Shown piece by piece: positions 2,295 through 54,879 of a DNA stretch of 60,000 nt (the first letter of the stretch is position 1; every line of letters begins with the position of its first letter). The DNA is from Malacoraja senta. Its lineage: Eukaryota. A program made the translations under genes and the position numbers. Under the pieces are notes generated by a model. The model was not told where the DNA came from, did not search any database, and saw only the letters and a list, made by a program, of their open reading frames with translations. The stretch lies in the NCBI GenBank assembly GCA_038087875.1, contig CM075988.1, forward strand, positions 26,600,001 to 26,660,000, read 5' to 3'.

Positions 2295-2620
2295 GAAACG
2301 TCACCTATCCACGTTCTCCACAGATGCTGCCCGACCTGCTGAGTTACTCCAGCACTCTGTGAAACGTCACCTATCCACGTTCTCCACAGATGCTGCCTGA
2401 CCCGCTGAGTTACTCCAGCACTCTGTGAAACGTCACCTACCCGTTCTCCACAGATGCTGCCTGACCCACTGAGTTACTCCAGCACTCTGTGAAACGTCAC
2501 CTATCCACGTTCTCCACAGATGCTGCCTGACCCACTGGGTTACTCCAGCACTCTGTGAAACGTCACCTATCCATGTTCTCCACAGATGCTGCCTGGCCCG
2601 CTGAGTTACTCCAGCACTCT
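2295..2620 (+). repeat. five tandem copies of a 64-66 bp unit derived from the Penelope-like repeat
   Basis: Unit GAAACGTCACCTATCCACGTTCTCCACAGATGCTGCCTGACCCGCTGAGTTACTCCAGCACTCTGT starts at 2295, 2361, 2427, 2491 and 2557. Confidence 0.92.
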
Positions 2621-5434: not shown

Positions 5435-8400
5435 AAAAAGTACAAATATTGACCAATGTCTGCAGCTCATTGCATGGTCTCTTCAACAATGGAGAGGTGG
5501 AATTTAAAATTGTACCATTGAGGTTTTATCCCCGATGCAAGTGGGCCTGGTTTGAACCAAGTCTCATGTACACACACACGATCCACTGTGCTCGATATCA
5601 CACTAAATATCCTATATATGTAGGAAGGATGCTGGTTTAAACTGAATATAGACAAAATGCTGGAGTAACTCAGCAGGACAGGCAATATCTGTCGAGAGAA
5701 GGAATGGGTGATGTTTCGGGTCGAGACTCTTCAGACTGATCATATATGAATGGATACAGCCAGAATGTTATTGAATCCACACAATAAGTACAGTAATATA
5801 CAAGACATTATCTACAAGCTGATGCTGACAACGAACATTAACTATTTTTTGCATTTACTTCTTTGGGCAAGAATGTGAAATTATTGCTGAGGAAATGGAT
5901 GAAATAAACAAAATAGAAGCACTAGGGAGAAACTGGACAGGTGCGTTCCATGGGCGTTAGCTGCTGCAGAAGATGCTACCTTTGTTTGCAGATAAGGGCC
6001 AACTGCCACAACTGTTGGCACCTCTCTACGCACTCTAGAAACTAGTTCACAAAGAACCCGCAACACATCAGTGCACGAGAGATAAGTAGTGGTGATGGGG
6101 TTAAACTGACAGAGGGCTGGGGCAGCACAAACACAGTGTAAACTGGCAAAATATCACTGCAGCCCAGAGACATGTGCCTTGGTGGATAACCTCAAAGTCT
6201 AGTGATGGAAATAACACTCCATTTCTTTCTAAATAGCATTAGGTTTTATTTTTCCAAATCCATGCTTTATTTTATTCAACTGCTTTCACACTATAGTTGG
6301 AGGCAGTGCTGCAGACTGCTTCTCTGTAATGCTACAACCTAGATAGATGGTCCAAGGATGAATCTCGTGTCTCCATCGTCTCACCACTGCGGTGGTGCAC
6401 AACCCATGTCCTGGCTTTCCAATTGGGAGACCAAGGGTTTAACAAGTATGGCTATGTTGCATCAATGGTTTGCAGATGAATATTAATGAAACAATCTTCT
6501 GGGTCCATCACCATGCCGTCCAATAATATAGTGGAGATTCCACGTGGAGACTAGTTTCACCGACTCCCCAGTGTTTTAGGGCAATAAAAGATGCCTTGCT
6601 TTCATTCGCAGATTGGGAAAGGTTTCTGCGTTGTGTCTAATCCTACAATCTAATTAGAAAGGTGAAGCAAAAATACCTTCCACAGAAAATAGAAAGCACC
6701 TTTGTGGGATTTAATAATGTGACATGCAGCTTTCTATTTGATATACAGACAGGTTTCCGGCTGTTGTTTTATTTTTAAACTTCATCCTGCTGGGTATTGC
6801 AGAGATCTCCACTACCACAATCATAAACTCAGCAGGGGAAGGATTTAAAAATGAAATGAAAGCTTCCCACATTAACCAGAATGACACAGAAACATGAAAG
6901 CAGCTCAGAGCTGTGCCGTAGGGGAATAACCTATCAGAGTCTAGTGACGGAAATAAAACCCGTCTCGTGATTTCTTCTTAATAAATATCGGTCTCGTTTT
7001 TCCAACTCGACCTCACTACTCACTCCATTTGCTTCTCACCACCGACAGAGGCAAGTCTGAGCATTCTGTTCCCAAACACCATTTCCTCTTTAAAATGTGC
7101 CGCCACAAACCTCTTTGCCAGCTAAAACCATCTCGCATTATATTGTATAGAATGCTGGAGCAACTCAGCGGGACAGGCAGCGTCTCTGGAGAGGAATGGG
7201 TGACGTTTCGGGTGGAGAGGAAGCGTCTCGAGCCGAAATCTCAACCATTCCTTCTCTCCAGAGATGCTGCCTGACCCGCTGAGTTACTTTCTGGAGATTC
7301 TATCTCATCACACTCCAAACTTGTCCCTCCTTGCTGTTCTCCCCATCACTCTCTCTCCCCCCCCCCCCCCCCCCCACACACACACATCCTCATGAGAATT
7401 ACAACACACATCTTCCTACTTACAGAACCTTTGTCGAACGGTATCAACATTTCCACCCATCATAATTCTCACCTTTAAAAGTCAGAAAAGAATATCGGTT
7501 GTTTCCCACGAAACCACAGTGACCTCACTGGTGATGGGAGATCCAGAAGTCATAAGAAGAGTTAGTCAAATTACTTTACCGTTTTACCTCCAGTTTGTAC
7601 AGCAATTTTTCCCATTGATCAGACCATCCTGACATCCTAGAGTTTGAAGGAGGATCTCGAGCCGAAACATCAGCCACTCCTTCTCTCCAGCGATGCTGCC
7701 TGTCCCGCTGAGTTATTCCAGCACTTTGTGACTATCATTCCATCGTGACTACTGGCTCAGATGTGTAAAGGGGAAGGCTGCCATCGACACATTATAGTGG
7801 GGACTGCAACTGGTTAGTTAGCCAGGCAACTGAACTGTCCTCTCACCAACTAGAGAGCAGTCCTGACCTCCCATCCCATAGTTGCCCGGTGATTCTGATC
7901 AGAGATTTGCAGAAAGGTCTAATCCCAGCAGAAATCATTTAGATCAGCCTAGAAACTAACCAGTGTATTGGGTCCAGGGATACTGCTCTGATAACATCAG
8001 TGTTTAATTTCCCATCAGCTGATACCCCTAAATTTTATGCCAGAGTCATTTCCTTCTGATCAGTTAATTTTGAAACAGTTTTCTCAAAAAACACTTGCTC
8101 AAGTAATTGAATTGTCACTTTACACGCAGTTCTACAGATTTGATCAAAACTCCTACTTCTTAATAACCCCTACGAATTGTTTTAAAATGATACTCCATTG
8201 CTATAGGCAAAGACCAACAGTCTAAGAGTGCATTAAAAGTTAGTTCATTCAGATCAGCCTTCAGAACAAATCAATTGATTTTATTCCCCCTTAAAGGACA
8301 GTGAGCCGAGACTTGCTTTGAGATGAGATCACCTTTCTAGCTTTGTCCAGCTAACAAGCAGAGCACTGTATCCCACACCTAGTGCCAGCCCTGTATCACA

Positions 8401-14345: not shown

Positions 14346-15499
14346 GTCTCCACTTCCTATTCATGTTCGAGGAGCAGAATGAGACCATTCAGCCCATCAA
14401 GTCTACTCCGCCATTCAATCATGAATGATCTATCTTTCCTTCTCAACCCCATTCTCCTCCTTTCTCCCCATAACTCCTATCGCAAGGTTCACCAATGTGG
14501 GGACGAGTCAAGGGCACTGTGCACCCAACAGACAAGTATCCCTTTGCCCCTGGTCCTTCCTTTCCATGGGAACGTAGTAGATGTCTACAATTATCAGGAG
14601 CTTGCCAGGGTAGATGTAGAGTTTGTCCTGCTTGCCTAACCCCTAAAGTGAGTGACTACACGACAGCCAATAACAAATCTAACAAAGCATTCAGGAGAGA
14701 GAACTTCACTCAGACAGTCGACCTTGCTCTCACATGCATGGCTGGCCAAATCGCTGAAGCATTTAAGGGGAAGAACCTTAAGTGAGGAAAAACAAAATGG
14801 ACAGAATTGCTGATTAGGGCTGGTTGAAGAAAGAGCTCCAATTGAGCATGAACACGTGCAGATCAGTTGGGCTGAGCGGCCTATTTCTGAGCTGAAATTA
14901 ATTCTCAAAGTACAAGTGAATAGCCTGCCAAAGCTTATTACTGAAGCTCAAGATAGAACAAAGAGCCACCTGGGCAACAGGGCGCAGGGCTGCGGCATTA
15001 ATCAGACCAAAGTAGCATTGGAGGAACAAAAGATTAGCTGGCCATGTCAACGCAACCCCTAACCCCTGACCCCTGACCTGCCAACTCTGGGCAAATCCAT
15101 GATATGTGCAGAGCCATTTCACAATTTCTCGGGCGGATTTGATGCAAGTGGCTGGCGTGACAGTTAGTCAAACATTGCACTCCAGTCTCCGAGATGCCAG
15201 TGCAGAGTTCAAAATGATAACATTAAAAAACACAATGTTTGGAATGATTATGGTGCCAACATCATTGATCTTATTTATGCATTATGTATCGCTGTTCCCA
15301 ACACATCCCATCCAGGAACCTTTGACCTTTACTCACAGTTGGTCACGAGGTGACCACGAGGTTGGGAAGCTGACTTTGGAACAAAGGAAACCGAGGGGAG
15401 AAATAACTGGATGTTCACAAGGTGGACGGCAGGGACTTAGTCCCCTTAGCACAGAGCCAAGCAACAGATTTAAGCTAATCAGTACAAGGCTTAAAAGGA

Positions 15500-15735
15500 T
15501 AGGCACAAAATGCTGGAGTAACTCTGCAGGACAGGCAGCATCTCTGGAGAGAAGGAATGGGTGACGTTAAGGGTCGAGACTCTTCAGACTGAAGTTCAAT
15601 TCAGTCTGAGGAAGGGTCTCGACCCAGAACGTCACCCATTCCTTCTCTCCAGAGATGCTGCCTGTCCTGCTGAGTTACTCCAGCATATTGTGGCCATCTT
15701 TGATTTAAACCAGCATCTGCAGTTCTTTCCCACAC
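15500..15735. mobile_element. Penelope-derived palindromic repeat copy
   Basis: Two inverted arms meeting at TCTTCAGACTGAA...TTCAGTCTGAGGAAGGGTCTCGACCC. Confidence 0.8.
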
Positions 15736-19448: not shown

Positions 19449-19492
<44 letters not shown>

Positions 19493-19783
19493 GTGCCTTT
19501 CTAATACTCAAGGCGCTTTACATCGCATTATTCATTCACTCCTCAGTCACACTCGGTGGTGGTGAGCTACTTCTGTAGTCACAGCTGCCCTGGGGCAGAC
19601 TGACGGAAGCGTGGCTGCTAATCTGCGCCTACGGCCCCTCCGACCACCACCAATCACTCACACACATTCACACACATTCACACGCAGGCAAAGGTGGGTG
19701 AAGCGTCTTGCCCAAGGACACAACGACAGTATGCACTCCAAGCGGGATTCGAACCGGCTACCTTCCGGTTGCCAGCCAAACAC
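19449..19783 (-). mobile_element. tRNA/CORE-type SINE with L2-like 3' tail and 41-nt poly(A)
   Basis: Minus strand: B box GGTTCGAATCC, CORE-like GTGTCCTTGGGCAAGAC, tail TGTAAAGCGCCTTGAG...AAAGGCACTATA followed by A41. Confidence 0.75.
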
Positions 19784-20240
19784 TGAAATTCTTGCTTTGC
19801 TTCAGCACAACAGAATATAGAAGGCATGAATACAGAACAGATCAGTGTGTCCATATACCATTGAATACATATATACACACATCAATAAACAGATAAAGTG
19901 CAATGAGCTATTAATGCTCAGAGTTTTGTTTGAGTTGAGCTCAATAGCCTGATGGCTGTGGGGAAGTAGCTATTCCTCAACCTGGATGCTGCAGTCTTCG
20001 GGCTCCTGTACCTTCTACCCGAAGGCAGCGGGGAGATGAGTGTGTGGCCAGGATGGTGTGGGTCCCCGATGATGCTGGCAGCCACTTTGAGGCAGCGACT
20101 GCGATAGATCCCCTCGATGGTGGGGAGCCGATGATGGACTGGGCAGGGTTTACAACTGTTTGCAGTCTTTTCCGCTCCTGGGTGCTCGAGTTGCCGAACC
20201 AAGCCACGATGCAACCGGTCAGCATGCTCTCTACCGTGCT
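19784..20240 (-). mobile_element. Rex1/Babar LINE 3' fragment
   Basis: Frames ESMLTGCIVAWFGNSSTQERKRLQTVV and HPGHTLISPLPSGRRYRS...RLRNSYFPTAIRLLS. Confidence 0.85.
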
Positions 20241-20372
20241 GTCTTTCCCCCTCAATCCCATGCTCATGGCTTCACCCCAGACGCCCTGACATTAGTAAGC
20301 AGCCGTACTCTTTTGCACTTTCACCTATTGTCCACCCTCCAGGTACACTCTAACCACTCAGCTCTGAAAATT

Positions 20373-20557
20373 GTTAAAGAAGGAACTGCAGATGTTGGAA
20401 AATCGAAGGTACACAAAAATGCTGGAGAAACCCAGCGGGTGCAGCAGCATCTATGGAGCGAAGGAGACAGGCAACGCCTCGGGCCGAAACGTTGCCCATC
20501 TCCTTCGCTCCATAGATGCCGCTGCACCCGCTGAGCTCCTCCAGCGTTTCCGTGTAC
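20373..20557. mobile_element. Penelope-derived palindromic insertion with 14-bp TSD
   Basis: Inverted arms centred near 20482; CAGCTCTGAAAATT duplicated at 20359-20372 and 20558-20571. Confidence 0.85.
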
Positions 20558-21240
20558 CAGCTCTGAAAATTCATCCCTCACCATATTTGAGCCACACTTA
20601 CTTCGAGACTCTTCTTCAATGTCCTCTCTCTGACCAAATGGGGAGCAATGCTTGATCAAAGCACCAAGTGCCGGAGGAACTCGGCAGGTCCGGCAGCATC
20701 GGAGGAGTGAATGGACAGACGATATTCCGGGTCGGAGCCCTTCTACAGATTGATGGCGGCAGGGAGAAGGCTGGACATGAGATGCGGGGGAGGGGACAAA
20801 GTCTGGCGAGTGACCGGGAGACGGTGAGGAGACCCACCTGGCCGCGGTGGCGGGTCTGGGGCAGCAGGAGAGTAGCAGCAATCACAGAGGGAGAGCAGTG
20901 AGAGAGGGTCTCGCAGAACTCCCGTCATAGAGAGGAGGAGAACCATTCTTCGAGGAGATTTCAAAATGGAGCAGCAAAATGGAGATGCAAGGAAACCGCA
21001 GAGCGAAACACAAACTGCTGGAGTAACTCAGCAGGTCAAGCAGCATCTGTGGAGGGTATGGCAGGCAATATTTCAGGTCAGAGCCTCTTCAGACTGATTC
21101 TAGTTGGGGGGAGAAAGCTGGAAAAGATAGGTGGGGGACTAACAAAGCCTAGCAAGTGATAGTGGATCCTTTCGCTTCATTTTTACTTGATTATTTTCCA
21201 TATAATACCATGGCACGATGTAAAACATTACATTAATATC

Positions 21241-21442
21241 GAAGGTAGACAAAAATGCTGGAGAAACTCAGCGGGCGAGGCAGCATCCATGGAGCGAAGG
21301 AAACAGGCGACGCCTCGGGTCGAGACCCCTCCCCAGACCCAGACTTCAGAGGCTGAAGAAGGGTCTCGACCCGAAACGTCGCCCACTCCCCTTGCCCCAT
21401 AGATGCCGCCTCACCCGCTGAGCCTCTCCAGCATTTCTGTCT
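21241..21442. mobile_element. Penelope-derived palindromic repeat with an intact hammerhead core in the right arm
   Basis: Inverted arms of about 90 bp each; CTGAAGA-A-GGGTC-TC-GACCC-GAAA-CGTC at 21353-21380. Confidence 0.82.
21353..21380 (+). ncRNA. minimal type I hammerhead ribozyme motif (PLE-associated)
   Basis: Core CUGAAGA, stem II GGGUC/GACCC, GAAA, palindromic ACGU stem III, GUC cleavage triplet. Stem I is weak in this copy. Confidence 0.6.
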
Positions 21443-22137
21443 TTAGATAAAATATAATTGAGAAGGAAGTCATAACTCGTCAGTGCCAAATGTTGCACAT
21501 TAATTAACTAAACTAGTTAGAAAATGAGATCAAAAACCCCATGGGGAACCTATTTCCCTGTTGCAGTCTCTTTAAACCATATATTATTGTACCATGACTT
21601 GTGAATATGACTGTAATCATATAATTATATAAAACTAATATAATGAATATAATTGCGAGTGTGTATTTTGAAGGAGACTGCCGCAGAGGTCCAACTCCTG
21701 AACCAGCCTAATTCATGGGTGAGGGCAGTTCCTGTGGGTTCCCCCATTTACTGAACCCCACTGACTGCCAGTGTGCAGAGTGGGGGTCACGGCCATAGTG
21801 GGACTGGGGCAGTACCAGGCTGGGGGAAGGCTAAGGCATCTTCCACTGACAGGAAAATGCCTAACCCTAACCCTAACTGCCCCCCCCCTTCCAGAGCTGC
21901 CCACGGCTGGAGCTGGAGCCGCTTTGGGACCGGCTGCGGGCTCCGTACGTGTGGCCCCGCAGCGCTTCCACCTCGGCCAGCATGCCCTTCTGGTTCATCG
22001 TAGTGATGATGGTGGGGAGCAGCACAGCCCTGCACGCCGCCTGGGCCGCCTTCAGCACCACCATAGCGCCAGCTCCGTCAGTCCGCCCACACGCTCGCTG
22101 CAACACTGGCCATCCGACAGCCCGACCCTAACCCTAA

Positions 22138-37363: not shown

Positions 37364-37585
37364 AAGGAACTGCAGATGCCAGTTTCAATCGAAGTTAGAC
37401 ACAAAATGTTGGAGTAACTCAGCGGGAGAGGCAGCATCTCTGGACTCTGGAGAGATGAATGGGTGACGTTTCAGGTCGAGACCCTTCTTTCAGACTAGTG
37501 TATCGACCCAAAACGTCACCCTTTCCTTCTCTCCAGAGATGCTGCCTGTCCCACTGAGTCACTACAGCTTTGTGTGTCTATCTCC
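37364..37585. mobile_element. Penelope-derived palindromic repeat copy
   Basis: GGAAGGAACTGCAGATG...GGGTGACGTTTCAGGTCGAGACCCTTC followed by an inverted arm. Confidence 0.75.
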
Positions 37586-38470: not shown

Positions 38471-39703
38471 CCTTTGTGACCGGAACATAAATGTTGCTGG
38501 CCAGCATTTTGGGATGATCAGAGTTTTATCTGACTTGTACAGAGTGCAAAGCTCATCTTCATTATCAAATGACTTCAGAACCATCAGTGCCTTGCCTGCA
38601 ACTCCCATGATCACCAGCACTGGGGAAGGCATCGTTGCCAAGGCAAGGCACTCAATGGTCCAGCCAGGCTCTGGATGAATCAGAATACAACTCCCTGCTC
38701 ACATAACATACTTGGTCTTTAAAGAGCATGGATCAGACCAAATGCGAGAGGCCCCCGACTGTCACGGGAGGCTTGCGTTACAGGCTGGGACTTGCTCATG
38801 CAGTGGCAAACTATGGGGAAATATCAACCAACAAAATATATGGACACAGTCTCTGTGCCGATCTGTCCATCGTTAGCCCCTTACTCCCAGAGAGAAACTG
38901 GTTAATACATGGCCTGGATTAGCACAGGATGGAAGTATAGGCATCATCTTCCTCCCCACCTTCACCCTCTCTCTACATCCCAGAGTCACAGCTCATATCC
39001 TCACATCCATCAGTTTCACAAATATTCTAATTTGTACCACTTTTTGTTCAATGCTCTTATTTATCACTATATTTGCTCCCGTCTCCTATGACAACTCTGA
39101 CGTACACCAGGACTTTACTGATGTAGGTCCATGCTCCATGGGTTAGTTGATGGGTCTATGTTGGACATGTCTCAAGTCTCATTCCACTTCACCCTTGGCT
39201 TCATCCACCCTGTACAGGCAGCACACACGTGGCTTATTTTGCTACCTTATACACTTGCCTGTATTAATCTGCCCTCAAATCAAGACCGGTTCTATGAGGC
39301 TTACAGGCACTGTGGGATGTTTTTTTACCCCTTAAGCTCTTCCTCCTGACACATGCAACTTTTTCATTAACAGTCTAATAAAAGGTCAGTCAATCAATCA
39401 TCGACTGGTTAAGATAAGGACTAACGAGATTAATCTTTGCAAACAGAATTAAACTAAATTATAAAAATGTTATTTTTCCACAGAAAGTGATTAGAGCACA
39501 AGGCAGTCAGGCAAACTCTGTTAAAATGGATCGTTTAAACAATAAAATCATATTCATAAAGTCAGTATGTTTAATAGGGCTGAAACAGCAAGTTGTGAAA
39601 AAGATGGGACTGAACTGGTTGTGAAGCGATCGCTGGGATTGGTTTGAGAACACAGAAGGAACATTACAAAACATAGTTCCAACAAAGGAGATGCAATGCT
39701 CAC

Positions 39704-40926
39704 CTGTGCTGCTCGATAGCTTCATTGCCTGCCAGCTCAATGCCACAGACGTTACACCGCTCACTGGCAGATCTATTCTCAGTCTTCATGCCCACAGCCA
39801 GTTCGCCCAACTTGCTGAAAAGCTCCCTCTGGATGAAGCCTTGAGGCATGAGGCCGGCGTACCCGCTGAAGTCCATCGCCATGGAGAGTGCAGGCTGTAC
39901 GTGCAGGGCCGACGAGAGGGAGGCGGGCACCTCCAGCAGCCCGTCAGGCCGGCGGTTGAACTGAATGGGGTACAAGGTGGCGTGTCTCTCCGCCTGCGCA
40001 CCAGCGGTGTTCTCCAACCCCACTTGGGCAACAAAGCCACCCTCAAGAGGCTGATCCCCGGGATTATCCTCACGCACGTAATGCAGCTCACGGGCACTAG
40101 TGATGACGCTGCTACGCGTCGGGGTACCGGGGGCTTCTTTGGACTTATCTGCATCAAGTACCTTCTCTCCCCCTGAAGAACCCATGTCACCCATCTTGGG
40201 GCTTGCACCTTCCTCCACCTGCATCATTTCATGCTTGATCTCAGTTATCATGGGATGTCCACTGCCAGCAGAAAATGCTTCATCTACAGCAGCTTGTTGC
40301 AGAGTTCCCTGAATAATCGACTGCCCGATACTCATTAGACTATCTACAGCAGCTTTGGTGGGGCTCATTGCTGAAAGGCCAAAAGATGTGGAGACTGAAG
40401 GACTCTGGTCTTCCATCGTCCCCTTTGGCATGGCTTGCTTAGCAGGGTAACCAGCCTCTTCACCAGAAACGTGCTTAGTAACCAATATGTTCTTGGTAAA
40501 AATGGTCTTTCCCCCATCCTCCTCTTCAGTGACCGTCATATCTGTATCATGGTCATCTGTCGCCTGAATCGTCTCCAGTATCTTCAGACACTGCTCCTCC
40601 AAGTACTCAATCTCCAATATCTCTGCTGCATACAGCAGATCATCCAAGTCCTCTACTTTGGCTTGCAGTGTGGCAGTGTATGCATATTCCAGGATCTGTT
40701 GGAATGTCTTTGGTGAAAGGAAGTCCAAGGTGTAATGCTGACTGTTGCGTAGAAATAAAATTTCAAACATCTTGCTGGTGCAGGCCAAGACTGTGCGATG
40801 GGCGTGGAACTCCTGGCTGTCCACCAAGATGACCACGTCACACAGCGTCCCCAACAGTCGCATCTGGTTGGCTTTGTGAAGGAGGACCGAGGGATGAGTG
40901 GGATTCTGAAGCTTTACTAACCCCAT
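39704..40926 (-). CDS. ZBTB16: ZBTB16/PLZF first coding exon: BTB/POZ domain, central region and start of zinc finger 1
   Basis: 408-aa ORF MGLVKLQNPTHPSVLLHKANQMRLLGTLCDVVILVDSQEFHAHRTVLACTSKMFEILF...TPTRSSVITSARELHY...FIQRELFSKLGELAVGMKTE...CNVCGIELAGNEAIEQHR closely matches vertebrate PLZF. It ends at a phase-2 donor CACAG|GTGAGC (GT at 39703-39702). The exon's acceptor TTTTGTTCTTGCAG|GTG places the exon start at 41022. Confidence 0.97.
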
Positions 40927-41022
40927 GTTTAATCAAATCCACAGATGTGTTCTGTGCTGGACCAATTCATCAGGCTGTCTGTATGGTTGGTTACACGGTC
41001 TGTTGTTGAAGTCTGGCGTCAC
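40927..41022 (-). other. ZBTB16: 5' UTR part of the ZBTB16 BTB exon, containing a 13-codon uORF (40970-40929)
   Basis: Lies between the acceptor (AG at 41024-41023) and the ATG at 40926. Reads ATG AAT TGG TCC AGC ACA GAA CAC ATC TGT GGA TTT GAT TAA ac ATG. Confidence 0.8.
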
Positions 41023-45910: not shown

Positions 45911-46484
45911 ATCATCAACTCAAGAGTTCTACACCACAATATGAAGTGTAATGACTAGTCGCAACAATATCCATCGTTAGAACAGTCCTTCATTGTAAAG
46001 TAATTTTGGGCAGCACAAGGTCAAGAAATTAATAACCCTTTCTGAACAGAACAGTTGAAAATAACACAAAAATCTTGCCTGTGACCAAAATAAATCCCCC
46101 CCCCTCCTGATCACCACAAGGTCCCTCAACTTTACAGCGAGTTATTGTCATATTCTTACCCACACTAATCAATAGTTCCTAGGTGTATTATGTTGCAATG
46201 TAGATGCATTATGTGGCCTTTCTCACAAATTGCACCACATGGCAGCATTACTTCAATTATCATTTCATTGACACTTTGTTCATCACTTATATCTGCTGGC
46301 AGAAAGAGTGAACACCTCACTATTCATCCCCAAAAAGCTCTGGAGAGTCCAGTCTCATCCCCACAGAAACACACTGTTACTGGACAATTACATTTTGCAA
46401 TCAGCTTGAAATATTGGGTGCAAAAAAAAAGTCTAGTTAATAGCACAGAAATGAACGTTTTAATAAGGTTTACTTTAACAGCAG

Positions 46485-46645
46485 GTACACAAAAATGCTG
46501 GAGAAACTCAGCGGGTGCAGAGGGGTTCGGCCCGAAACGTTGCCTATTTCCTTCGCTCCATAGATGCTGCTGCTGCACCTGCTGAGTTTCTCCAGCATTT
46601 GTGTACCTTCGATTTTCCAGCATCTGCAGTTCCTTCTTAAACAAA
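46485..46645. mobile_element. Penelope-derived palindromic insertion with 15-bp TSD
   Basis: TTACTTTAACAGCAG duplicated at 46470-46484 and 46646-46660; inverted arms GTACACAAAAATGCTGGAGAAACTCAG / CTGAGTTTCTCCAGCATTTGTGTAC. Confidence 0.85.
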
Positions 46646-52387: not shown

Positions 52388-52587
52388 NNNNNNNNNNNNN
52401 NNNNNNNNNNNNNNNNNNNNNNNNNNNNNNNNNNNNNNNNNNNNNNNNNNNNNNNNNNNNNNNNNNNNNNNNNNNNNNNNNNNNNNNNNNNNNNNNNNNN
52501 NNNNNNNNNNNNNNNNNNNNNNNNNNNNNNNNNNNNNNNNNNNNNNNNNNNNNNNNNNNNNNNNNNNNNNNNNNNNNNNNNNNNNNN
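52388..52587. other. assembly gap (200 N)
   Basis: Run of exactly 200 N, typical of a fixed-size scaffolding join. Confidence 0.99.
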
Positions 52588-53037: not shown

Positions 53038-54460
53038 GGGCACAGCGGTGCAGTGGGTAGAGCTGCTACCTCGCAGCGCTAGAGACCCGGGTTTGAAACA
53101 TAGAAACATAGAAAATAGGTGCAGGAGGAGGCCATTCGGCCCTTCTAGCCAGCACCGCCATTCATTGTGATCATGGCTGATTGTCCCCAATCAATAACCC
53201 GTGCCTGCCTTCTCCCCATATCCCTTGACTCCACTAGCCCCTAGAGCTCTATCTAACTCTCTCTTAAATCCATCCAGTGATTTGGCCTCCACTGCCCTCT
53301 GTGGCAGGGAATTGCACAAATTCACAACTCTCTGGGTGAAAAAGTTTCTTCTCACCTCAGTCTTAAATGGCCTCCCCTTTATTCTTTGGCCCCTGGTTCT
53401 GGACTCGCCCAACATTGGGAACTAGCTTGTCCAGTTCTTTTCTATAAGAAAACTCCTCATCCTTCTAAACTACAGTGAATACAAGCCTAGTCTTTTCAAT
53501 CTTTCCTCATATGACAGTCCCACCATCCCAGGGATCAATCTCGTGAACCTACGCTGCACTGCCTCAATCACAAGGATGTCCTTCCTCAAATTAGACCAAA
53601 ACTGTACACAATACTCCAGATATGGTCTTACCAGAGCCATATACAACTGCAGAAGAACCTCTTTACTCCTATACTGAAATCCTCTTGTTATGAAGGCCAA
53701 CATTCCATTAGCTTTCTTCACTGCCTGCTGTACCTGAACGCCAACTTTCAGTGACCAGTGTACAAGGACACCCAGGTCTCGCTGCACCTCCCCCTTATCT
53801 AACCTAACCCCATTGAGATAATAATCTGCCCCCTTGTTTTTGCCACCAAAGTGGATAACCTCACATTTATCTATATTATACTGCATCTGCCACGCAGCTG
53901 CCCACTCACTCAACCTGACCAGGTCACCCTGCAACCTCCTAACATCCTCTTCACAGTTCACACTGCCACCCAGCTTTGTGTCATCCGCAAACTTGCTAGT
54001 GTTGCTCCTAATTCCCTCTTCCAAATCATTAATATATATGGTAAACTGTTGCGGCCCCAACACCGAGCCTTGCGGCACTCCACTCGCCACTGCCTGCCAT
54101 TCTGAAAAGGACCCGTTCACTCCTACTCTTTGCTTCCTGTCTGCCAACCAATTTTCTATCCACGTCAACACCCTACCCCCAATACCATGTGCTCTAATTT
54201 TAGTCACCAGGGTGCCTGATCTGGGTGTTGTGCGTGTGGAGTTTGCACGTTCTCCCTGTGACCACGTGGGATTCCGCCGGGTCTCCGGTTTCCTTCCATG
54301 TCCCAAAGATGTGTATATTTGTAGGTTGATCTGTAAACTTGTCCCCGTGTGTGTAGGGAGTGGATGAGAAAGTGGGATAATAATCACATATGGACGGGTG
54401 ATCATTGGGACTTGACGGGTTGAAATACCTGTTTCCATGCTGTACATATAAATTAAACTA
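53038..54460 (+). mobile_element. HE1-like V-SINE split by an antisense CR1 insertion (head about 53038-53096, body about 54210-54460)
   Basis: tRNA head GGGCACAGCGGTGCAGTGGGTAGAGC...CCGGGTTTGA stops at the CR1 tail; the V-domain GTGTGGAGTTTGCACGTTCTCCC resumes after 54210. Confidence 0.8.
53097..54209 (-). mobile_element. CR1 LINE fragment with reverse transcriptase core
   Basis: [49 protein letters not shown] in ORF 53470-54447; tail AAACATAGAAACATAG. Confidence 0.95.
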
Positions 54461-54879
54461 ACAGTAATTAGATAATAATAATCATTTTACCCCAATTATT
54501 GCAAAGGATAATTGTTCAGTTCCAGAACCCCAGAGCTGTAGAAGGCCATGGTGTGGTAGAGCACAGCATGGAAACTGCCCTTCGGCCCACCATGTTGGTG
54601 CTGTCCTGTAATGCATAACTCCCTTGGTGTTAGTGCCATTGTCCGGGTTGTATCACTGCCTCGGTCTGCGTCCATCCTGGAGTGGGACTTGAACTCTCAA
54701 TCTTCAGTCATAGGCTTACAGCGTGGAAACAAGCCCTTCAGCCCTACTTGTCCACGCTGATCAACATGTCCCAGCAACACTAGTCCCACCTGCCTGCGTT
54801 TGGCCATATCCCTCTAAACCTGTCCTATCCATGTACCTGTTTAAATGTTTCTTAAAAGTTGTGATAGTCGATGTTGATC

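What the first reader, a model, noticed from the sequence alone, without database searches (positions are those of the whole stretch)
20373..21442. Two hairpin repeats with strongly one-directional T>C (minus-strand A>G) substitutions, resembling a fossilised ADAR hyper-editing signature
Seen, by manual arm-to-arm comparison: in the 21241-21442 palindrome about 17 of 18 mismatches, and in the 20373-20557 palindrome about 10 of 11, are explained by T>C on the plus strand in both arms. Examples are CGTTTCGG>CGCCTCGG, GAGTTTCTCC>GAGCCTCTCC and CTTCTTCAG>CCTCCCCAG. Sister copies at 15500-15735 and 46485-46645 show no such bias. On the minus strand, which is the ZBTB16 sense strand, these changes turn A-U pairs into G-U pairs, so the RNA hairpin stays paired. 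Established: ADAR edits A to I (read as G) in long dsRNA; germline-transcribed genes show A>G strand asymmetry; PLZF marks spermatogonial stem cells. Inference: an edited RNA may have been copied back into DNA by retrotransposition or RNA-templated repair. Alternatives are a local transcription-associated mutation hotspot, GC-biased conversion or a consensus error.
Basis: partly seen in the sequence, partly recalled or inferred. Interest (0 to 1): 0.78.

Follow-up and report, generated by a model that had tools for sequence, protein, structure and literature searches.

The report
ADAR-edited RNA fossilised as a retrocopy
The two odd hairpins belong to one 2-kb reverse-transcribed copy of an RNA from another locus, and that RNA appears to have been heavily A-to-I edited in its double-stranded parts before it was copied into an intron of ZBTB16.

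Summary
Against a 19-copy consensus, the 21241-21442 palindrome differs by 17 T>C and 1 C>T, with no A>G. The 20373-20558 palindrome differs by 11 T>C out of 16 changes.

The two hairpins are not separate events. Window 19490-21442, plus a 41-nt poly-T at 19449-19489, is a 5'-truncated, polyadenylated retrocopy whose RNA sense is the minus strand. Its source, or closest surviving relative, is G000:C4405:107189-109120, which has no poly-T and carries the second hairpin element at full length.

Of 69 source-to-copy substitutions, 40 are A>G on the RNA strand and 6 are T>C.
- 90-bp stem: 19 of 46 A changed.
- 54-bp stem: 7 of 31 A changed.
- 682-nt spacer: 0 of 136 A changed.
- A third region, without an identified duplex partner: 12 of 78 A changed.

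The neighbour preference leans the ADAR way, with 5' A/U favoured over C/G (p=0.015).

Best reading: ADAR hyper-editing of a repeat-rich RNA, fixed in DNA by retroposition. This is a new, clean example of a known kind. No target-site duplication was found, and the h2 bases were not confirmed in reads.

The parts
19449..19489 (-). 41-nt poly-T on the plus strand, which is the poly(A) tail of the retrocopy on the minus strand
   Evidence: The run lies exactly where homology to C4405 ends, and it is absent at the corresponding place in C4405.
19490..21442 (-). Body of the retrocopy (RNA sense = minus strand), 5'-truncated at 21442 inside the h2 hairpin element
   Evidence: 94.2% identity over 1968 aligned columns to C4405, with homology limits at 19485 and 21442; the 682-nt spacer occurs only twice in the genome; 69 substitutions, 40 of them A>G in RNA sense.
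19780..20239 (-). Copy of an abundant ~470-bp interspersed repeat. It holds the third A>G cluster (plus-strand T>C at 19868-20115).
   Evidence: at least 38 other genomic copies at 89-91% identity; against a 10-copy consensus the window has 11 T>C and the source has 3; 12 of 78 A changed. No inverted partner was found within C4405:101683-113884.
20360..20372 (.). Left target-site duplication of hairpin element h1 (13 nt). It was inherited from the source locus.
   Evidence: the same 13 nt recur at 20559-20571.
20373..20558 (+). Hairpin retroposon h1: a 35-nt head followed by the palindrome (arms 20408-20482 / 20484-20558). It is antisense to the retrocopy RNA.
   Evidence: Against the source there are 7 T>C (20432, 20497, 20520, 20536, 20538, 20550, 20551), 1 A>G and 1 C>G. 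Three more T>C against the family consensus, two of them at 20477 and 20478, lie in the 26 nt (20454-20479) that the source has since lost.
20559..20571 (.). Right target-site duplication of h1
20572..21240 (-). Spacer between the hairpins; it carries no editing signature
   Evidence: Over 20559-21240 there are 4 substitutions and one 2-nt indel against the source. 0 of 136 A changed to G in RNA sense, and identity is about 99.4%.
21241..21442 (-). Hairpin retroposon h2 (arms 21247-21343 / 21346-21442). It is sense to the retrocopy RNA and lacks the first 39 nt of the element that are present in the source.
   Evidence: 19 T>C out of 22 substitutions against the source. In RNA sense, 19 of 46 A changed: 10 in the 5' arm and 9 in the 3' arm. 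RNA fold: minus strand -177.5 kcal/mol with 18 G-U pairs, plus strand -130.6.
39700..40932 (-). Context: ZBTB16/PLZF exon encoding the BTB domain. The retrocopy lies in the intron downstream of it, in the same orientation.
   Evidence: Pfam BTB, E 1.1e-25. PDB 1buo PLZF, E 4.7e-67.

Best explanation
A repeat-rich, non-coding RNA was transcribed from the locus now at G000:C4405:107189-109120 (plus strand there), or from a very close relative of that locus. The RNA carried two long hairpin retroposons, with stems of about 90 bp and about 54 bp.

Inferred step 1: ADAR deaminated many adenosines in the double-stranded parts to inosine.
Inferred step 2: the polyadenylated RNA was then reverse-transcribed by a LINE-type enzyme. 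Inosine was read as G, and the 5'-truncated cDNA was inserted into a ZBTB16 intron.

The result is window 19449-21442. It is a retrocopy whose minus strand shows A>G (plus strand T>C) clustered in the hairpin arms.

Shown here: the source/copy relationship, the poly(A) tail, the direction, strand and clustering of the changes, and their position in A-U pairs of long stems. Inferred: the enzyme (ADAR) and the order of events (editing before reverse transcription).
For: 1. **One retrocopy, not two events.** C4405 aligns with window 21442->19485 at 94.2% identity over 1968 columns. The spacer is found only at these two places in the 1.94-Gb genome.
2. **Direction source -> window.** The window alone has a 41-nt poly-T exactly at the homology limit. 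The window's h2 element is cut 39 nt into an element that is complete in C4405, where it is flanked by an approximate 9-nt duplication. Family consensuses give T as the ancestral state, as does the read majority.
3. **The poly(A) tail sets the RNA strand as minus.** On that strand 40 of 69 substitutions are A>G, against 6 T>C, 8 G>A, 5 C>T and 10 transversions (p=3e-7).
4. **Confinement to duplex.** h2 stem 19 of 46 A; h1 stem 7 of 31 A; spacer 0 of 136 A; the other two non-cluster segments 1 of 72 and 1 of 82 A. Stems against the rest: p=1e-17. Outside the clusters divergence is 17 substitutions in 1328 nt, with 2 A>G and 2 T>C.
5. **Pairing.** 18 of 19 changed A in h2 were A-U paired in the source fold, and both arms are hit, 10 and 9.
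6. **Neighbour preference across the three clusters.** 5' A/U 24 of 71 against 5' C/G 14 of 86 (p=0.015). 3' U is lowest at 4 of 35, against 3' G at 13 of 44.
7. **The enzyme family is present.** The genome has adenosine-deaminase (A_deamin, PF02137) exons at three or more loci.
8. **In-situ action is unlikely.** Other copies of the hairpin family in the same intron show no bias.
9. **The assembly is partly backed by reads.** A contig of run X1 reproduces 20506-20906 with one difference, covering five T>C sites of h1. Contigs of X2 reproduce 20683-20860 and 20894-21030 exactly.
Against: - No target-site duplication flanks the composite. The best local match of the flanks is 5 nt, and 417 of 500 shuffles do as well.
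- The third cluster (12 of 78 A, window 19868-20115) has no long helix in the minimum-energy fold. It also has no inverted partner within 5.5 kb upstream or 4.8 kb downstream at the source locus. A duplex there is assumed, not shown.
- Depletion of 5' G alone is not significant (6 of 34 against 32 of 123, p=0.37), nor is 3' G enrichment (p=0.41).
- The W-A preference would also fit error-prone polymerase eta (recalled).
- C4405 differs from the true template in at least one way: it has a 26-nt deletion in h1.
- The h2 bases were not confirmed in locus-specific reads. No RNA data were available.
Confidence: 0.85

Rival explanations
1. Mutation in place after insertion. Either transcription-associated A>G asymmetry on the non-transcribed (sense) strand of the germline-expressed ZBTB16 gene, or editing of the ZBTB16 pre-mRNA followed by RNA-templated repair.
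For: The retrocopy lies in a ZBTB16 intron in sense orientation, so the A>G strand is the non-transcribed strand. No target-site duplication dates the changes to the moment of insertion.
Against: The 682-nt spacer between the hairpins has 0 of 136 A changed, and outside the clusters A>G equals T>C at 2 each. Other hairpin copies in the same intron and transcript show no bias: 15495-15689, 37388-37580, 46484-46642 and 7151-7288. A change rate of 41% of A in 196 nt is far beyond a regional asymmetry.
Confidence: 0.06
2. Hypermutation by the reverse transcriptase itself, through dNTP-pool imbalance or misincorporation at structured template. The same retrocopy origin applies, but no ADAR is involved.
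For: It has the same retrocopy framework. It is one-directional and acts on the RNA-sense strand. Structured RNA slows reverse transcriptases (recalled).
Against: A pool imbalance would act along the whole template, yet 0 of 136 spacer A changed while 19 of 46 changed in the adjacent stem. Both arms are hit equally, and the changed A were base-paired. The 5' A/U preference fits ADAR.
Confidence: 0.05
3. The C bases are inherited diagnostic positions of a C-rich subfamily, or result from gene conversion by or recombination with such copies. On this view they are not new changes.
For: The same positions are C in unrelated copies with other backbones. L062 shares 7 of h2's 8 left-arm sites, and L091 and L098 share several. 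Three of h1's T>C sites are shared by 7-9 of 29 copies. The 15-nt motif with the double or triple variant in the inner part of the arm occurs 182 times in the genome.
Against: The near-identical source (99.4% in the spacer) has T at all 26 stem sites. The top 19 and top 29 genome hits to h2 and h1 include no copy with the combination. The adjacent double variant near the loop, with its flanks, occurs only 9 times genome-wide, and two of those are h1 and h2. Conversion would not give A>G only on one strand in both arms. Subfamily changes seen in true palindromic copies are compensatory, T>C in one arm and A>G in the other (L063, L095).
Confidence: 0.03
4. Assembly or sequencing artefact at the hairpins.
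For: Palindromes are hard to sequence. h2 was not covered by a locus-specific contig in the four runs laid.
Against: The errors would need to be T>C only, on one strand, at 38 sites, and only in this copy. An X1 contig reproduces h1's right arm, with five of the T>C sites, with 1 difference in 401 nt.
Confidence: 0.01

Closest known systems
[quoted passage not shown] I saw this paper only as an entry in reference lists and as a one-line mention of hyper-editing in 'mammalian transposons'. Its content is recalled, not read.
   Same: Clusters of A>G between a retroelement copy and its closest relative, attributed to A-to-I editing of the RNA intermediate that was then fixed by reverse transcription.
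   Different: Here the edited template is a 2-kb composite, polyadenylated host transcript rather than a single transposon. The source locus is identified and is 99.4% identical in the unedited spacer. The duplexes are intramolecular hairpin retroposons. The genome is a non-mammalian vertebrate genome by my recognition of its repeats, which was not tested.
ADAR hyper-editing of long dsRNA in transcripts, for example inverted Alu pairs (Porath et al. 2014, PMC4365171; I saw the listing and the start of the abstract only).
   Same: Many A>G changes per molecule, on one strand, confined to long duplexes, with 5' G disfavoured.
   Different: Those are RNA-DNA differences seen in RNA-seq. Here the pattern is written into germline DNA.
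APOBEC3 G>A editing fossils in retrotransposons (Carmi, Church & Levanon 2011, Nat Commun; seen in a reference list only).
   Same: The logic is the same: clustered one-type mismatches between a retro-copy and its source reveal an editing enzyme that acted during retrotransposition.
   Different: That case involves a different enzyme, substrate (cDNA) and mismatch type (G>A). Here G>A is 8 of 69 and is not clustered.
Processed retrocopies (LINE-mediated retroposition of polyadenylated RNA).
   Same: Poly(A) tail at the 3' end, 5' truncation, a single source locus, and insertion at an unrelated site.
   Different: No target-site duplication was detectable. The template is non-coding and made of repeats, so loss of introns cannot be used as a criterion.

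Membership tests
ADAR (A-to-I) hyper-editing signature | Mismatches are A>G on one strand only, the RNA-sense strand | tested here: met
   40 A>G against 6 T>C out of 69 substitutions, with the RNA strand fixed by the poly(A) tail. In the two stems, 26 A>G against 1 T>C.
ADAR (A-to-I) hyper-editing signature | Sites cluster in long double-stranded RNA | tested here: inconclusive
   Met for two clusters: a 90-pair stem with 19 of 46 A and a 54-pair stem with 7 of 31 A, against 0 of 136 A in the spacer. Not met for the third cluster (12 of 78 A), which has no long helix and no cis inverted partner in 12.2 kb.
ADAR (A-to-I) hyper-editing signature | Neighbour preference: 5' U/A favoured and 5' G disfavoured; 3' G favoured (preference recalled from the ADAR literature) | tested here: inconclusive
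   5' A/U 24 of 71 against C/G 14 of 86, p=0.015. 5' G alone 6 of 34, p=0.37. 3' G 13 of 44 against 3' U 4 of 35; G against non-G p=0.41. The direction is right but the sample is small.
ADAR (A-to-I) hyper-editing signature | An ADAR enzyme is encoded by the organism | tested here: met
   PF02137 A_deamin exons above cut-off at C2:159.2 Mb, C21:2.63 Mb and C1:230.1 Mb. ADAR was not told apart from ADAD or ADAT1.
ADAR (A-to-I) hyper-editing signature | Inosine, or A>G in RNA against DNA, at the source transcript | not testable with these tools
Processed retrocopy | Poly(A) tail at the 3' end that is absent from the source | tested here: met
   41 T at 19449-19489 at the homology limit; none in C4405.
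Processed retrocopy | Identifiable source locus, with the copy truncated at the 5' end | tested here: met
   C4405:107189-109120. The copy starts 39 nt inside an element that is complete in the source.
Processed retrocopy | Target-site duplication flanking the insert | tested here: not met
   The best flank match is 5 nt, and 417 of 500 shuffles do as well.
Hairpin repeats h1/h2 as non-LTR retroposons (SINE-like) rather than MITEs | Variable, long target-site duplications directly at the element ends | tested here: met
   By eye, most of the 30 h1-type copies printed show direct flank repeats of about 12-17 nt with different sequences; h1 has a 13-nt one. I did not score them by program.

The most novel reading that the evidence does not exclude
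ADAR editing followed by retroposition may be a recurrent driver of sequence diversification in this genome's very abundant hairpin-retroposon family, not a one-off. The same T>C positions recur in copies with different backbones: L062 shares 7 of h2's 8 left-arm sites, and L091 and L098 share several. These could be fossil ADAR hot spots written into DNA many times. If so, subfamily structure would partly record RNA editing, and the family would give a genome-wide, datable record of germline ADAR site choice in an early-branching vertebrate.
Probability: 0.25. Interest if true: 0.65.

Novelty: new member of a known kind. Interest (0 to 1): 0.45.

Why it matters
This is an unusually clean natural record of RNA editing becoming heritable DNA change. 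Source and copy are both present and are 99.4% identical where the RNA was single-stranded. In the 90-bp stem, 41% of the A are converted.

The case shows three things:
- Long hairpin retroposons in this genome are, or were, ADAR substrates in germline or early-embryo cells.
- Hyper-edited RNA can still be reverse-transcribed and inserted.
- One retroposition event can introduce about 40 point changes at once and weaken a perfect DNA palindrome.

It also gives a simple recipe, source/retrocopy pairs, for reading past ADAR site preferences from a genome alone.

It does not show RNA-templated repair or any special role of ZBTB16.

Tried and rejected
- **Rfam scan of 20000-21800.** Only sub-threshold matches to unrelated miRNA hairpin models (best 89 bits against a gathering score of 137). 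These are generic hairpin hits, not family membership.
- **The look-up of sequencing runs.** No RNA holder is listed.
- **Read laying at 85% likeness.** No contig of organisms B or C could be shown to be an ortholog.
- **Strand test by pattern search.** I tried to find whether hyper-edited copies genome-wide always carry A>G on one element strand, using patterns for double and triple variants. Most hits are ordinary single-arm copies or palindromes with compensatory changes, both orientations occur, and no conclusion was possible. A crude count on L061-L069 was not robust.
- **Duplex partner for the third cluster.** No inverted match in C4405:101683-113884, and the minimum-energy fold gives only short helices there.
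- **Target-site duplication of the composite.** None found.
- **Identity of the 470-bp repeat.** Its 117-aa frame has no Pfam hit and only weak Atlas leads (best 0.84). The 'Rex1' label was therefore not tested.
- **Literature.** No paper in the held library describes an ADAR-edited retrocopy in a fish or shark. The key precedent (Knisbacher & Levanon 2015) is not held.
- **The search of earlier findings.** Returned nothing for this genome.

Full report
**1. The observation**

Arms 21247-21343/21346-21442 are 78% complementary, and arms 20408-20482/20484-20558 are 85%. Both belong to a very abundant repeat family. Own-genome searches gave 3843 and 2967 first-look candidates, of which 40 each were scored.

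- **h2.** I aligned h2 (21241-21442) with 19 other genomic copies. It differs from their majority consensus at 18 of 186 comparable columns: 17 T>C (8 in the left arm, 9 in the right) and one C>T at a CpG. That is 17 of 44 T changed and 0 of 46 A. None of the 19 other copies has more than 4 T>C.
- **h1.** h1 (20373-20558) differs from a 29-copy consensus by 11 T>C, 2 A>G, 1 C>T and 2 transversions. Three of its T>C sites are also C in 7-9 of the 29 copies.
- **Ascertainment.** The comparison copies were the best hits to the queries, oriented to match them. This biases the controls, not the targets.
- **Polarity from reads.** Contigs of four public runs laid at 85% likeness are dominated by other family copies. 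At 9 of the 11 window-C sites listed, they carry T in most of the depth in run X1.

It is strong for h2 and moderate for h1.

**2. What the hairpins are**

Copies of the h1 type have sharply defined ends. By eye, most of the 30 printed show direct flank repeats of about 12-17 nt with different sequences. h1 itself has a 13-nt duplication at 20360-20372 and 20559-20571. This points to target-primed reverse transcription, so the family are retroposons rather than MITEs. Rfam gives only sub-threshold generic miRNA-hairpin hits.

**3. The key result: one retrocopy with an identifiable source**

The best genomic relative of h2 shares its loop but has none of the C bases.
- **Extent of homology.** Its flanks also match. 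C4405:107189-109120, in reverse orientation, aligns with window 21442->19485 at 94.2% over 1968 columns. The 682-nt spacer between the hairpins occurs at only these two places in the genome, at 99% identity.
- **Left limit.** The window has a run of 41 T (19449-19489) that C4405 lacks.
- **Right limit.** The window stops 39 nt inside the h2-type element. In C4405 that element is complete, with its head segment and an approximate 9-nt flank duplication.

So window 19449-21442 is a 5'-truncated, polyadenylated retrocopy. Its RNA sense is the window's minus strand. C4405 is the source or its closest survivor. It has since lost 26 nt inside h1.

No target-site duplication flanks the composite. This is the one classical retrocopy feature not met.

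**4. The substitution pattern between source and copy, read in RNA sense**

There are 69 substitutions: 40 A>G, 6 T>C, 8 G>A, 5 C>T and 10 transversions. A>G against T>C gives p=3e-7.

| Region | A>G per A |
|---|---|
| h2 stem | 19 of 46 (10 in the 5' arm, 9 in the 3' arm) |
| h1 stem | 7 of 31 |
| 682-nt spacer | 0 of 136 |
| Window 19868-20115 (inside a 470-bp repeat) | 12 of 78 |
| Remaining two segments | 1 of 72 and 1 of 82 |

- These figures are. h1 has three more changes, judged against the family consensus, in the 26 nt that the source has lost.
- The two stems against everything outside the three clusters give 26 of 77 against 2 of 290, p=1e-17.
- Outside the clusters the two copies differ by 17 substitutions in 1328 nt, with A>G and T>C at 2 each.
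- For the third cluster, a 10-copy consensus of the 470-bp repeat confirms the polarity: the window has 11 T>C and the source has 3.
- In the minimum-energy fold of the source RNA, h2 is a 90-pair stem and h1 a 54-pair stem. 18 of the 19 changed A in h2 were A-U pairs and are now G-U.
- As a by-product, the window's h2 folds to -177.5 kcal/mol as minus-strand RNA and to only -130.6 as plus-strand RNA.

**5. Mechanism**

The strand is fixed independently by the poly(A) tail. The change type is A>G. The changes are confined to long duplexes with both arms hit. The fraction of A converted rises with stem length and perfection (41% and 23%). All of this is the behaviour of ADAR on long dsRNA, as I recall it from the ADAR literature.

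Neighbour preferences lean the same way but the sample is small:
- 5' A/U 24 of 71 against C/G 14 of 86, p=0.015.
- 3' U is lowest, at 4 of 35.
- 5' G depletion alone is not significant.

The genome encodes adenosine-deaminase-domain exons at three or more loci.

The simplest path has three steps. The source locus is transcribed. The hairpins are hyper-edited. The polyadenylated RNA is reverse-transcribed, with I read as G, and inserted.

- **Shown:** the source/copy relationship, the tail, and the direction, strand, clustering and pairing of the changes.
- **Inferred:** the enzyme, and that editing preceded reverse transcription.

**6. Rivals**

- **In-situ transcription-associated asymmetry, or copy-back from ZBTB16 pre-mRNA.** The retrocopy does lie in a ZBTB16 intron in sense orientation: the BTB exon at 39700-40932(-) matches PLZF 1buo at E 4.7e-67. 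But the spacer is untouched, and other hairpins of the family in the same intron are unbiased.
- **GC-biased conversion.** This fails on 40 against 6.
- **Subfamily positions.** The source has T at the changed sites. The adjacent double variant with its flanks occurs only 9 times genome-wide, twice here. However, the same positions do recur as C in unrelated copies, which I take as a lead to recurrent hot spots.
- **Reverse-transcriptase hypermutation.** It would not spare 136 spacer A next to a stem with 19 of 46 changed.
- **ADAR acting on the cDNA strand of an RNA:DNA hybrid.** This would give the opposite strand.
- **Artefact.** An X1 contig reproduces 20506-20906, covering five of h1's T>C sites, with one difference. 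X2 contigs reproduce 20683-20860 and 20894-21030 exactly. h2 itself was not confirmed.

**7. Unexplained**

The third cluster has no long local helix and no inverted partner within C4405:101683-113884. An antisense transcript of this abundant repeat, or a partner further away in a longer precursor, is assumed.

**8. Comparison and novelty**

Fossils of ADAR-edited retroelements in DNA have been described for mammals by Knisbacher & Levanon 2015. I saw that paper only in reference lists and in a one-line mention. It is not held, so its content is recalled. Four full-text searches turned up no report of such a case in a fish or shark, or of a composite-transcript retrocopy with its source.

I file this as a new member of a known kind. 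It is a clean, instructive example, but not a new mechanism. The link to ZBTB16/PLZF expression and the idea of two separate hairpin events are not.

Noticed in passing
L062 (C2:62329619 region), L091 (C1:98357090-98357590), L098 (C6:23573440-23573940): Single-arm copies with different backbones carry C at many of the same arm positions that are T>C in h2. L062 shares 7 of h2's 8 left-arm sites. These could be recurrent editing hot spots or an unrecognised subfamily.
   Followed up: partly
L063 (C4:15000789 region), L095 (C1:221076160-221076660): Palindromic copies in which T>C variants of one arm are mirrored by A>G at the paired positions of the other arm. The palindrome seems to have formed from an already variant single arm, for example by snap-back copying.
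   Followed up: no
window 2316-2616: Five hits to a ~39-nt piece of the hairpin arm, spaced 64-66 nt apart (2316-2354, 2382-2420, 2446-2484, 2512-2550, 2578-2616). This is a short tandem array derived from the family.
   Followed up: no
window 19490-19779 (minus strand): The 3'-terminal ~290 nt of the retrocopy contain a tRNA-like B-box-type motif and end in an A/T-rich tail just before the poly(A). By recall this resembles a tRNA-derived fish SINE. If so, the RNA's 3' end coincides with a SINE 3' end.
   Followed up: no
C4405, position corresponding to window 20454-20479: The source locus lacks 26 nt of the h1 left arm that the retrocopy and the family consensus both have. The deletion therefore arose in the source after the RNA was made, or C4405 is a sibling rather than the exact template.
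   Followed up: partly
window 53470-54486 (-): A 338-aa open frame with a reverse-transcriptase domain (RVT_1, E 2.4e-13). This is a LINE-type element in the same intron region.
   Followed up: no
window 52388-52587: An assembly gap of 200 N.
   Followed up: no
G000:C4036:61543-68063 and C1:230100715-230107232: A_deamin exon hits with identical scores on an unplaced contig and on C1. This is probably an uncollapsed duplicate of one ADAR-family gene.
   Followed up: no
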